DNA from: Anolis carolinensis
Lineage: Eukaryota
Length of the DNA stretch: 64,000 bases
Reading direction: 5' to 3'
Assembly: GCF_035594765.1 (NCBI RefSeq)
Contig: NW_026943825.1
Location: 16,980,590 to 17,044,589 of the forward strand
Part shown: positions 42,993 to 45,621 of the stretch, piece by piece
Position numbering within the stretch: position 1 is the stretch's first letter
Layout: every line of letters begins with the position of its first letter
Made by a program: the position numbers

Positions 42993-43759
42993 CCCTAATT
43001 AACGTGACTATCTCATTGGCCAGAAGCAGGAGCACACTTCCCATTGAAATCCTGATAAATGTAGGTTGGTTAAAATTGTTTTTATTTTTAAAGATTGTAT
43101 TGTTCTTTTATTGTTCTTGTTGTTGTTGTTTTTGCACAACAAATAAGACATATGCAGTGTGCATCGGAATTTGTTTTTATTTTTTTCCAAATGATAATCC
43201 GGCCCCTCAGCAGTCTGAAGGATTGTGGACCGGCCCTCGGCTTAAAACGTTTGAGGACCCCCGTCCCAGAGGGACTCAGGGCGGCTCACAAAACACTCAG
43301 GGTGTGACACAAAATACGAGGAGGAGACCCCTTGACCGTTTCCACGGCCTGTTCTTTCCCCTTCAAGTCTGCTGGTCTTTTCTCCGCTGCCCACTCCTTT
43401 TCAAGGAGCAGGTGGAGATTCCAGCGGGGATCCCATCAGGTCTGCTGGCTTTGTTCTGTTGTCGTTGGCCGGTGTCTTTGCCGACTTCCTTCCTCCCAAC
43501 CGAGGAGGACGGTGTCATGAAGTCCTGGGGGCCCTTTCCTCACACAGCGGTGTCTCTGTCCCGTTCTATCTACCGTAGGTGGTGATCCCGCTCTTCCTGG
43601 GCCAGCAGGTCCCCTCCGAGAAAGTCCAGGACGCGCTGGAGGAGCTGAACATCGCCCTCCAGAAGCTGGAGGAGAAGTTCCTTCAGGACCGGCCCTTCAT
43701 GATCGGGAACGAGATCTCCCTGGCTGACCTGGTGGCCGTCGTGGAGCTCATGCAGGTAA

Positions 43760-43791
<32 letters not shown>

Positions 43792-45621
43792 GTAAAACTT
43801 TATTTATATACTGCCCTGTCTCCCGGATGGGACTCAGGGCGGTTTACAGTCATAAACGCAAACACAAACATTACAGAACAACATAACACAAGTTCAAAAC
43901 TTCATGAGGACGAACCACCACAGAACATGAGGTCACAGTCAAAAAGTGATGATAAGACGTTATCTAAAACAGCGCTCAAAAATCAAAGGAAGCACGAGGC
44001 AAAGAAAGTTGCTAAACAGGAGGCCAGGGCCGAAGGGAACCAGGAAAGTGCTCCAGCCCCAGCCGTGCAGACTGCATTGCACAATATACCACCCGCTGTA
44101 ACATTGGGAGATCCTGAAGTGGATACGAAGATAAAGAATCTGAGGAAGAAGCTAAAAGCAATTGAACAGCTGAAAGATCAAGCTCCTACAGGCAAACAAC
44201 TAGAGAAAAACCAGCTGGAGAAGATTCAAAAAGAGGCTGCCCTTTTAAAGGAGCTTGAAAATCTGGAACTGGGACTCTAGAACGACAGAAGAATTGCAGT
44301 TTTGTTCTACAGAATCACTGAATAGTAAATGACTTCAGAATGTCCATTTTTAAATGCATACAGCACAGATGCTTTTTATTATTTCCCTTTAATATCTAAA
44401 TAATTGCAGAATTTAACAAGAAATGTAATTTAGAGCCAGGCAAACCATTTACTGTGTTTCAAAACACATTGATGAACTCCTAGTAAAGTACAAGGGGTCT
44501 TCTTACTTTTTACACAAAGTAAAATAATACAACACAGTCTTGGGACATGGAGGTAAAGTGTCTTTAACTTTGGAGCACCTTAATTAAAGCACCAGCAAGT
44601 CTTGAGCAAGTCTTGAGAGGAAGAGAGGAGAAAACAAGTGCACAGAGGTGTTGTAGTTCCCGGAGTTTGGAGTTTTCTATTTGTGTTTTGGAGTTCTTTC
44701 TGTTTCAGTTCATATAGTTTTAGTTAGAAACTCCTCAGCAGTAGGTGTTGTTTGCAGAGTAACAGAGATAAGTATGAGCAACAAGGAGTAGGAAGCAGCA
44801 TACACGGCACAAGTAATGTGAGCAAACAGCCAGAGTTTCTACAATAATGTTGCTCACTGCTCAAGCTGGAGATAACTGAAACAGACTGGAGCAGAATGGG
44901 AGTAAAATAAAATAAAAATATTAAAAGATAAAAGTAAGGAAAACAATGACGATACCGGAGCTCAGCTGAATGCCTCTTAACTCTCCGGTGTCTGCCTCCC
45001 GACTGTCAAAATAATACAATTATAACAATAAATCACACTTACATGACCAGATCAAGGGAACGGGAACCATAAAACCAATATATTAAAATGTATCATTTTA
45101 GGCTTGGGAAATCTTGTGCAATATATTCAGGCCCAGAAATCGGCGGTAGTCCAATGTAATTACTCAAAAACCTGCCGACACCACCAAGTCTTCAGTTCTC
45201 ACAAGTATGTGTACATATAGCAAAACAGTTTGAGTTTAAGACACTCTACTGCTTAAAGCATCTAGTACAGGGTTAAGCTTTTACTCATATATGCATAAGT
45301 AACAAAATAGTTAGAGTTCAATTCCCTCTTTTGCGACTTTCTATGATAATATTATAGTTTCGCAGTATGCTGCAAGTAGTTGTCTTCTTTTGCTTTTCTG
45401 CATAGGAGGAGCAGGTTGGTAAGTAGAAATGAAGGAATTCATACACCCTACATTGAGAATCACCATACCCCTCAACAGTTTATCGGCAGCCAGTGGAGCT
45501 GCTTTAAGAGGGGCGTTGTGTCCTCCTCCGTGGTCACGAGAAGAAGGAGGGACGGGCGGGGTCTTAGGAGGGGAGTGTGCTCTCTCCGGCCACGGTGGCG
45601 GCCCTTCACGCCCCGTCTCTC

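What the first reader, a model, noticed from the sequence alone, without database searches (positions are those of the whole stretch)
43579..44910. EIF2A retro-fragment in frame with GSTT-C exon 4: candidate GST-eIF2A chimera
Seen: the frame of exon 4 continues without a stop through the donor, an (ATA)n poly-Ile stretch and a LINE tail (44 codons), then 130 codons of eIF2A C-terminus to its own TAG (44280). AATAAA follows at 44906. The native exon 5 is frameshifted. Known: the eIF2A C-terminal region resembles the ribosome-contacting C-terminus of PYM. Inference: intron read-through with intronic polyadenylation would give a ~350-aa GST-linker-eIF2A tail fusion. Chance is plausible, since the donor is strong and several substitutions look neutral.
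Basis: partly seen in the sequence, partly recalled or inferred. Interest (0 to 1): 0.72.

Follow-up and report, generated by a model that had tools for sequence, protein, structure and literature searches.

The report
EIF2A retrocopy inside lizard GST intron
A copy of the tail end of the EIF2A messenger RNA sits inside an intron of an anole-lizard detoxification (GST theta) gene and lines up in frame with the exon before it; it looks like an ordinary processed pseudogene, and nothing shows that a fusion protein is made.

Summary
Exon 4 of the third theta-class GST gene (43579-43755) reads without a stop through its donor, ten ATA codons and a repeat fragment (44 codons). It then reads 130 eIF2A-derived codons to TAG at 44278-44280. 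The tail matches residues 457-584 of Anolis sagrei eIF2A at 109/117 identities and the C-terminus of PDB 8dys. AATAAA lies at 44906 and 44911.

The host gene matches Anolis carolinensis GSTT (H9GJT1) at 100% in all five exons, except for a 4-nt deficit at 45816 that shifts the last 16 codons.

The fragment is mRNA-derived. It runs seamlessly across two points where mispredicted eIF2A models of other species break off (5 and 3 models).

The frame match is within reach of chance, roughly 0.05-0.08. The donor CAG|GTAAGA and the acceptor are strong. Four replacements hit residues otherwise conserved in squamates. No protein in three large searches joins both halves.

Verdict: a 5'-truncated EIF2A processed pseudogene nested in an intron. 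The chimera remains untested speculation, and interest is low.

The parts
39628..39739 (+). GSTT-C exon 1 (ATG at 39628)
   Evidence: tblastn with P0126 (H9GJT1_ANOCA), 39/39 identical. GT donor at 39740.
42223..42310 (+). GSTT-C exon 2
   Evidence: 29/29 identical to P0126. AG..GT borders.
42459..42609 (+). GSTT-C exon 3
   Evidence: Identical to P0126 up to the exon end. AG..GT borders.
43579..43755 (+). GSTT-C exon 4 (59 codons, phase 0 at both ends)
   Evidence: 59/59 identical to P0126 residues 118-176. Pfam GST_C E=3.9e-5.
43756..43761 (+). Intron-4 donor GTAAGA after CAG
   Evidence: Read directly. Matches the recalled consensus MAG|GTRAGT at 8 of 9 positions.
43760..43793 (.). (AAT)n microsatellite, read as (ATA)10 = Ile10 in the exon-4 frame
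   Evidence: The other two frames read Asn or stop.
43794..43887 (-). Fragment of an interspersed repeat whose microsatellite end faces exon 4. Strand and family are inferred, not established.
   Evidence: Five other copies in the window were aligned: 26306, 37495, 46620, 21925 and 27045. The best match is 43757-43900 against 26313-26458, 76.8% over 151 columns.
43888..44277 (+). eIF2A-derived coding fragment, 130 codons (equivalent to residues 457-584 of A. sagrei eIF2A)
   Evidence: No intron at two inferred parental exon junctions.
44278..44280 (+). TAG, the parental eIF2A stop codon
   Evidence: The alignment reaches the last residue of eIF2A.
44281..44903 (+). Presumed EIF2A 3'UTR carried by the retrocopy (inferred)
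   Evidence: Contiguous with the coding fragment and single-copy in the window. The parental mRNA was not available for comparison.
44904..44932 (+). A-rich tract, probably a decayed poly(A) tail, holding AATAAA (44906, 44911) and ATTAAA (44920)
45667..45863 (+). GSTT-C exon 5. There is a 4-nt deficit at 45816/45817 relative to P0126. The shifted frame stops at 45832-45834; the ancestral stop is at 45861-45863.

Best explanation
This is a 5'-truncated processed pseudogene (retrocopy) of EIF2A. An EIF2A mRNA was reverse-transcribed from its poly(A) end, presumably by a LINE reverse transcriptase. It was inserted in sense orientation into intron 4 of the third of three tandem theta-class GST genes of an anole lizard (carolinensis-like), next to or into an older repeat that carries an (AAT)n microsatellite.

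Only the last 130 codons, the stop, the 3'UTR and an A-rich tail were copied. The fragment is removed with the intron when GSTT-C is spliced.

Its frame continues that of exon 4 for three ordinary reasons. The 132-nt spacer happens to be a multiple of three. The microsatellite happens to be read as ATA rather than TAA. The copy is too young to have picked up a stop.

Shown: the identity of both parts, the open frame, seamless passage across inferred parental exon junctions, and the gene structure.
Inferred: LINE-mediated origin, neutrality, and the absence of a functional fusion protein.
For: 1. Origin. The tail's best match is eIF2A of A. sagrei, 93% identity, at the top of 207 hits with E<=0.001. 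Homology starts abruptly at 43888 (residue T457) and runs to the parental stop.
2. Processed. In the alignment, 23 of the 110 named orthologue rows were printed, chosen partly for high deviation counts. Five gene models from different species (P0013, P0045, P0055, P0088, P0038) diverge immediately before HE[DN]EPPQ. Three (P0092, P0109, P0091) diverge right after QLEKNQ(V). I read these as parental exon borders. The window is continuous across both.
3. An A-rich tract with AATAAA follows about 620 nt of unique sequence.
4. The host gene is intact. All five exons are 100% identical to H9GJT1_ANOCA and all four introns are GT..AG. The donor is CAG|GTAAGA, and a (CT)n tract precedes the exon-5 CAG.
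5. Relaxed constraint is suggested. Four retro-specific replacements (P24T, S73L, K80T, A100P) fall where A. sagrei and at least 9 of 10 other named squamates agree. The A. sagrei branch has 2 replacements plus a 2-aa gap.
6. No fusion was found. None of the 120 listed hits (of 136) covers more than 56% of the 233-aa ORF. Of the 150 best representatives, 148 match one half only. None of the 15 near-length hits to the tail exceeds 77% identity, so the retro ORF itself is not in the collection.
7. The linker encodes VVELMQVRIIIIIIIIIIV, with mean Kyte-Doolittle hydropathy 2.95 over 19 residues. It derives from a microsatellite and a transposon.
8. Base rates. 404 retrocopies were reported in the A. 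carolinensis genome (PMC3136929, Table 1 passage). About 20% of animal retrocopies lie in introns, and chimeric transcripts were called for only 34 of 726 expressed retrocopies (PMC5408686, passages).
Against: - No target-site duplication was found. The best candidates are a 5-nt GTAAG (43756 and 44933) and an 8-nt GGAGCTCA (43743 and 44957), both at chance level. A defining mark of LINE-mediated insertion is therefore missing.
- The exon borders of the parent were inferred from broken gene models, not read from a genome.
- The 130-codon frame is fully intact.
- The fragment deviates at only 2 of 62 columns that are at least 95% conserved among 110 named orthologues, and 30 of those 110 orthologues deviate as often. 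That test does not show decay.
- The combined open, in-frame path has a chance probability of roughly 0.05-0.08, or 0.009 by shuffles. That is not large.
- Poly(A) signals lie downstream, and exon 5 of the canonical isoform is damaged in this sequence.
- A Sceloporus undulatus model of the orthologous gene (P0130, isoform X1) reads through intron 4, so retention of this intron is at least modelled in a relative.
- In-frame AG dinucleotides at 43909, 43924, 43939 and 43957 could in principle splice exon 4 directly onto the eIF2A frame.
Confidence: 0.82

Rival explanations
1. The retro-fragment matters only as RNA-level baggage. Its poly(A) signals (ATTAAA 44583, AATAAA 44906 and 44911) cause some GSTT-C transcripts to end inside intron 4, lowering output of the full-length GST. 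This would work as intronic retrogenes do at H13/Mcts2. The encoded eIF2A tail itself would have no role.
For: Canonical signals lie on the sense strand about 0.8-1.15 kb into a 1.9-kb intron. Host-gene truncation by intronic retrocopies is documented (PMC5408686, passages). Intron 4 is far longer here than in paralogue A, where it is about 111 nt.
Against: No transcript data are available. The strong donor and acceptor favour normal splicing. Downstream GU-rich elements were not examined.
Confidence: 0.1
2. Read-through of the exon-4 donor, or splicing to an in-frame AG inside the fragment, combined with intronic polyadenylation, yields a ~350-aa (or shorter) protein. It would be made of GST residues 1-176 plus the eIF2A C-terminal tail, which could bring a truncated GST to the 40S subunit.
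For: The path is open and in frame. The eIF2A frame is intact and its terminal helical motif is largely kept. There are in-frame AGs at 43909, 43924, 43939 and 43957. Exon 5 is frameshifted in this sequence. The PYM C-terminus, which resembles eIF2A, associates with 40S (PMC4072592).
Against: - Chance is adequate to explain the frame.
- The candidate acceptors have purine-rich upstream tracts, at most 10 of 20 pyrimidines.
- The product would lack everything encoded by exon 5, that is the last helices of the GST fold by recalled structure knowledge. In the read-through form it would also carry an Ile10 hydrophobic stretch.
- K80T and A100P hit residues invariant in 10 of 10 squamates, inside or next to the conserved terminal motif.
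- No such protein appears.
- A TurboID study found no interactors specific to the C-terminal eIF2A fusion construct (bioRxiv 10.1101/2025.05.22.655611, passage).
Confidence: 0.05
3. The fragment is not a retrocopy. It is either a DNA-level duplication of the 3' end of the EIF2A gene or an assembly artefact.
For: No target-site duplication was found. The 4-nt deficit in exon 5 shows that this sequence differs from the one behind H9GJT1.
Against: The fragment crosses two inferred exon borders without intron sequence. It carries 4-5 private replacements and a decayed A-rich tail, which a cDNA contamination of the assembly would not show. The flanks on both sides are ordinary intron sequence of the same gene.
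Confidence: 0.03

Closest known systems
Nested (intronic) processed pseudogenes / retrocopies of vertebrates
   Same: mRNA-derived, 5'-truncated, intron-less across parental junctions, ends in an A-rich tract, and lies in an intron of an unrelated gene. About 20% of animal retrocopies are intronic (PMC5408686). 404 retrocopies were reported for A. carolinensis (PMC3136929).
   Different: No target-site duplication was detectable. The 5' end abuts, head to head, a repeat fragment with an outward-facing microsatellite.
TRIM5-CypA (owl monkey) and jingwei (Drosophila) chimeric retrogenes
   Same: A retrocopy in sense orientation inside a host gene, with an open frame that could be joined to upstream host exons (PMC5408686, passages).
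   Different: Those fusions are shown by transcripts, protein and function, and the retro-derived part is a whole folded domain. Here there is no transcript evidence, only a tail of eIF2A, and the host fold would be truncated.
Mcts2 in H13 intron 4 (mouse): intronic retrogene that shifts host polyadenylation
   Same: A retro-insertion in an internal intron carrying poly(A) signals on the host's sense strand (PMC5408686, passage).
   Different: Mcts2 has its own promoter and is imprinted. Nothing of the kind was tested here.
eIF2A C-terminal region / eIF2A-like C-terminal domain of PYM
   Same: The fragment holds the conserved terminal motif (KIKNLRKKLKAIEQLK...QLEKNQLEKIQKE...) that aligns to residues 475-603 of 8dys_A. 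The PYM C-terminus is described as eIF2A-like and 40S-associated (PMC4072592).
   Different: The beta-propeller (residues 1-456 of eIF2A) is absent. No comparison with PYM was run here.
Short 'eIF2A-like' models in other species, e.g. P0124 (Mesocricetus auratus, 155 aa, named 'eukaryotic translation initiation factor 2A-like')
   Same: A short protein model consisting of the eIF2A tail only.
   Different: 59% identity. Its genomic nature (retrocopy or not) was not examined.

Membership tests
Processed pseudogene / retrocopy | Derived from a multi-exon parent and lacking its introns | tested here: met
   The test is indirect. Five and three mispredicted orthologue models break at two common points inside the 130 aa, and the window is continuous across both. 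The parental gene itself could not be read.
Processed pseudogene / retrocopy | Poly(A) tract after the parental 3' end | tested here: met
   There is an A-rich tract at 44904-44932 after about 620 nt of unique sequence. Whether that sequence is the parental 3'UTR is not testable here.
Processed pseudogene / retrocopy | Target-site duplication flanking the insert | tested here: inconclusive
   Only chance-level matches were found: a 5-nt GTAAG and an 8-nt GGAGCTCA.
Processed pseudogene / retrocopy | Lies away from the parent, without the parent's promoter | tested here: met
   It lies in intron 4 of a GSTT gene, and the first 456 codons of eIF2A are absent.
Chimeric retrogene (TRIM5-CypA / jingwei type) | Retrocopy in sense orientation, in frame with host exons | tested here: met
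   The open frame runs 43579-44280.
Chimeric retrogene (TRIM5-CypA / jingwei type) | Transcripts joining host exons to the retrocopy | not testable with these tools
   No transcript collection for this organism is on hand. No protein model with both halves appears.
Chimeric retrogene (TRIM5-CypA / jingwei type) | Purifying selection on the retro-derived part | tested here: inconclusive
   There are no parental nucleotides, so no dN/dS. Four retro-specific replacements stand against two on the A. sagrei branch. The conserved-column test did not discriminate: 2 of 62 columns deviate, and 30 of 110 orthologues deviate as often.
Chimeric retrogene (TRIM5-CypA / jingwei type) | Insertion and frame conserved in related species | not testable with these tools
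eIF2A protein family | N-terminal beta-propeller (Pfam PF08662) plus C-terminal tail | tested here: not met
   Only the tail is present. Pfam finds no eIF2A domain in the fragment, and homology starts at residue 457.
Theta-class glutathione S-transferase (host gene) | GST_N and GST_C domains in a five-exon gene of about 242 codons | tested here: met
   All five exons are 100% identical to H9GJT1_ANOCA, whose precomputed Pfam domains include PF02798 and PF00043. The last 16 codons are shifted in this sequence.

The most novel reading that the evidence does not exclude
A minor GSTT-C isoform, made by read-through or by use of an in-frame AG inside the fragment and ended at the retro-derived poly(A) signals, encodes GST residues 1-176 fused to the ribosome-associating tail of eIF2A. 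In a haplotype whose canonical exon 5 is frameshifted, this would be a young, lineage-specific protein that places a glutathione-binding module on the 40S subunit.
Probability: 0.04. Interest if true: 0.55.

Novelty: new member of a known kind. Interest (0 to 1): 0.14.

Why it matters
As it stands, very little. It is one more intronic processed pseudogene in a genome already reported to hold hundreds of retrocopies.

It is a clean teaching case of how a retro-insertion can land in frame with a host exon by chance, and so of the raw material from which TRIM5-CypA-type genes occasionally arise.

If anole transcript data showed a real GST-eIF2A-tail isoform, it would be a datable, lineage-specific domain fusion involving a ribosome-binding tail. 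That would be of moderate interest to people who study new-gene origin.

Tried and rejected
- Target-site duplication. I scanned 43700-43905 against 44900-45010 for direct repeats. Only microsatellite/A-tail matches, an 8-mer GGAGCTCA and short AGTAAAA/GTAAG matches appeared, none above chance.
- Does the repeat resume after the retrocopy? Local alignment of 26420-26900 (the continuation of the best repeat copy) against 44880-45300 scored 47. Shuffles gave mean 31.8, sd 4.6, max 54, and the alignment was AAT repeat against the A-rich tail. BLAST of 44880-45400 and of 43888-45100 against the window gave only self hits plus one weak 36-nt match. There is no evidence that the retrocopy split a pre-existing element.
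- Homology of 44933 onward to the retained intron of the Sceloporus model P0130. tblastn of its 30 intron-encoded residues against 43756-45666 gave only E>=0.21 noise. The idea that GTAAG is the target-site duplication of a composite insertion is dropped as unsupported.
- Conserved-column test for decay. It did not discriminate.
- Pfam on the tail alone gave no family (best hit AP3D1, E=0.34, meaningless).
The parent of the same species therefore stayed unseen.
- P0131, an unnamed 260-aa protein, reads from exon 4 through an open intron into exon 5 of a related GSTT. Its source is unknown, so I draw no conclusion about expression.
- The two multi-stretch hits (P0240, P0361) were not fetched, because they are unnamed and their origin cannot be judged. 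P0240 ends with its GST-exon-4 match, so it cannot have the order GST-then-eIF2A.
- Literature. 'Anolis' + 'glutathione S-transferase theta' returned 0 papers. 'EIF2A' + 'processed pseudogene' returned 33 papers; of the 8 listed, none concerns this locus by title or abstract. 'Anolis' + 'retrocopies' returned 16 papers, 10 listed.
- Not done: the spliced ~350-aa model was not assembled, searched or folded. Exons were compared one by one only.
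Full report
**What the window is.** The 64-kb window has two N runs (20451-20592 and 40968-41125), which I left alone. It is not human. tblastn with the Anolis carolinensis theta-class GST H9GJT1 (P0126, 242 aa) finds three tandem GSTT genes on the + strand:
- A at 28671-30980
- B at 32811-37057
- C at 39628-45863

Copy C matches P0126 at 100% in every exon, so the sequence comes from A. carolinensis or something very close to it. Its exons are 39628-39739, 42223-42310, 42459-42609, 43579-43755 and 45667 onward, and all four introns are GT..AG. 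The figure of 350 aa is arithmetic: 528 nt of exons 1-4 make 176 codons, plus 44, plus 130.

**The observation.** The frame of exon 4 stays open from 43579 to TAG at 44278-44280, giving 233 codons.
- The first 59 codons are exon 4 (Pfam GST_C, E=3.9e-5).
- After the donor CAG|GTAAGA come 44 codons: V, R, ten Ile from (ATA)10, then VKLYLYTALSPGWDSGRFTVINANTNITEQHN.
- These 44 codons come from an (AAT)n microsatellite plus a fragment of an interspersed repeat. I aligned five other copies of that repeat from the window. The best match is 43757-43900 against 26313-26458, at 76.8%.
- From 43888 the frame encodes 130 residues of eIF2A.
- The best match is A. sagrei eIF2A (P0001), at 109/117 identities to residues 457-571.
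- The whole tail aligns to residues 475-603 of the eIF2A chain 8dys_A (E=4e-46).
- AATAAA lies at 44906 and 44911, and ATTAAA at 44583 and 44920.

Exon 5 is indeed frameshifted. P0126 residues 176-226 align up to 45816 and residues 228-242 align in another frame from 45816. The window lacks 4 nt relative to a sequence encoding IDPPLK. The canonical product would therefore end ...IDRSRPR (stop at 45832-45834) instead of ...IDPPLKAQMKPMLLKMLK. Only the last 16 codons are affected. I cannot tell whether this is an allele or an assembly error.

**Is the fragment mRNA-derived?** No eukaryotic genome collection is on hand, so I could not read the parental gene. Indirect evidence comes from broken gene models. 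I aligned the C-termini of 110 named eIF2A hits; 10 unnamed rows of the 120 listed were dropped. I printed 23 of these rows, chosen partly for high deviation counts.
- Five models from different species diverge immediately upstream of HE[DN]EPPQ: P0013 (gecko), P0045 (bird), P0055 (bird), P0088 (hamster) and P0038 (tinamou).
- Three models diverge right after QLEKNQ(V): P0092, P0109 and P0091.

Shared break points of this kind mark exon borders. The window runs through both without interruption. The homology also begins abruptly at T457, five codons upstream of the first border. The coding part is followed by about 620 nt of sequence that is single-copy in the window, and then by an A-rich tract. 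This is the anatomy of a 5'-truncated processed retrocopy.

One mark is missing: I found no convincing target-site duplication. The repeat fragment to the left does not resume on the right of the insert. The repeat (microsatellite end facing exon 4) and the retrocopy (A-rich end facing exon 5) lie head to head. The junction may share about 10 nt of similarity, because the repeat family reads ACACAGTTTAAAAC where the window reads ACACAAGTTCAAAAC. I cannot decide between two independent insertions and one composite event.

**Is the open, in-frame path more than chance?** The evidence is weak in both directions.
- The linker is open in 1 of 3 frames.
- Stop-free 44-codon windows make up 22.9% of all positions in the window (28967 of 126612) and 15.0% in the introns of GSTT-C on the + strand (699 of 4654). 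Low-complexity and repeat DNA is often open.
- Mononucleotide shuffles of the linker are open in 134 of 5000 cases.
- With a 1/3 chance of matching frames, the joint probability is about 0.05-0.08 empirically, or 0.009 by shuffles.
- The case was picked out after the fact from a genome reported to hold 404 retrocopies (PMC3136929, Table 1 passage). About a fifth of animal retrocopies are intronic (PMC5408686, passage).

The intact 130-codon frame is also expected for a young copy. Only 4 retro-specific replacements (P24T, S73L, K80T, A100P) and 1 ambiguous one separate it from the inferred parent. At that divergence a stop or frameshift is not yet likely; this last step is inference, not computed.

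At protein level, the four private replacements fall where A. sagrei and at least 9 of 10 other named squamates agree. Two of them (K80T, A100P) lie in columns conserved in at least 95% of 110 orthologues. The A. sagrei branch shows 2 replacements and a 2-aa gap. That pattern leans towards relaxed constraint, but the numbers are small.

The leave-one-out test does not single the fragment out. It deviates at 2 of 62 conserved columns, and 30 of 110 orthologues deviate at least as often. I count that result as neutral.

**Would a fusion be made, and would it work?**
- Canonical splice signals are good. The donor matches the recalled consensus at 8 of 9 positions, and a (CT)n tract precedes the exon-5 CAG.
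- The read-through product would carry a very hydrophobic VVELMQVRIIIIIIIIIIV stretch, with mean hydropathy 2.95.
- It would lack everything encoded by exon 5. From recalled GST structures, untested here, those are the last helices of the C-terminal domain.
- A spliced route also exists on paper. AG dinucleotides at 43909, 43924, 43939 and 43957 would keep the frame, but their upstream 20 nt hold at most 10 pyrimidines.
- The AGs upstream of the fragment (43793-43893) are all out of frame and hit a stop within 0-17 codons.

**Searches for any such protein found none.**
- Of the 120 listed hits (of 136) to the 233-aa ORF, none covers more than 56%.
- Of the 150 best of 386 representatives, 148 match one half only. 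The two multi-stretch hits were not fetched.
- None of the 15 near-length hits to the tail exceeds 77% identity.
- These collections are not transcriptomes of this animal, so this is weak negative evidence.

- A Sceloporus undulatus model of the orthologous gene (P0130, isoform X1) reads through intron 4. That intron encodes only about 29 residues there, and the read-through shifts the frame of exon 5.
- The PYM C-terminus is described as eIF2A-like and 40S-associated (PMC4072592, passages).

**Conclusion.** The thing is a 5'-truncated EIF2A processed pseudogene nested in sense orientation in intron 4 of GSTT-C. The in-frame continuity is best read as coincidence. A modest alternative is that its poly(A) signals truncate some host transcripts. 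The GST-eIF2A fusion protein is possible but unsupported.

**What stayed unchecked.**
- Transcripts, the parental EIF2A gene and mRNA, and other anole genomes.
- The cluster members of P0001.
- The supplementary retrocopy lists of PMC3136929.
- I found no paper on this locus. Only passages of PMC3136929, PMC5408686, PMC4072592 and bioRxiv 10.1101/2025.05.22.655611 were read.

Noticed in passing
window 28671-37057: Two more theta-class GST genes (A at 28671-30980, B at 32811-37057) lie in tandem upstream of GSTT-C on the same strand. In copy A, intron 4 is only about 111 nt and open in frame, so exon 4, the intron and exon 5 form one 202-aa ORF at 30378-30986.
   Followed up: partly
window 45816-45817: There is a 4-nt deficit relative to the sequence that must underlie H9GJT1_ANOCA (IDPPLK becomes IDR, with a stop five codons later). 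It is either a real allele or an assembly error; Sceloporus also has IDPPLK.
   Followed up: partly
window 43757-44932: The repeat fragment and the EIF2A retrocopy lie head to head. Their A/T-rich ends face outwards, and about 10 nt of possible microhomology lies at the junction (43886-43900). This would fit a composite insertion event as well as two separate ones.
   Followed up: partly
window 2548-3153: An ORF with a cytochrome P450 match (PF00067, E=1.3e-15, profile positions 297-359). It is probably an exon of a P450 gene upstream of the GSTT cluster.
   Followed up: no
window 47070-48769 (- strand): Two adjacent ORFs match reverse transcriptase RVT_1 (E=1.9e-23 and 2.2e-7). This is a LINE remnant just downstream of GSTT-C.
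   Followed up: no
window 29910-30421 and 34740-36127: 20/41-bp minisatellite arrays sit in intron 3 of both GSTT-A and GSTT-B. By eye the units look like reverse complements of each other; this was not tested.
   Followed up: no
window 4464-5963: A 156-bp unit is repeated 9.6 times at 98% matches. This explains the 614-aa ORF at 4314-6158, which has no credible Pfam match.
   Followed up: no
window 10696-11528: C/T-rich arrays (periods 69, 108 and 177) account for the extreme strand skew at 10-12 kb, with GC skew -0.64 and AT skew -0.54.
   Followed up: no
window 49277-50330, 51266-52100, 60746-61454, 62339-63997: Several further tandem arrays are present: 176 bp x 6.0, 173 bp x 4.8, 65 bp x 11, and an AT-rich ~175-bp satellite running to the end of the window. 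The last explains the 19% GC there.
   Followed up: no
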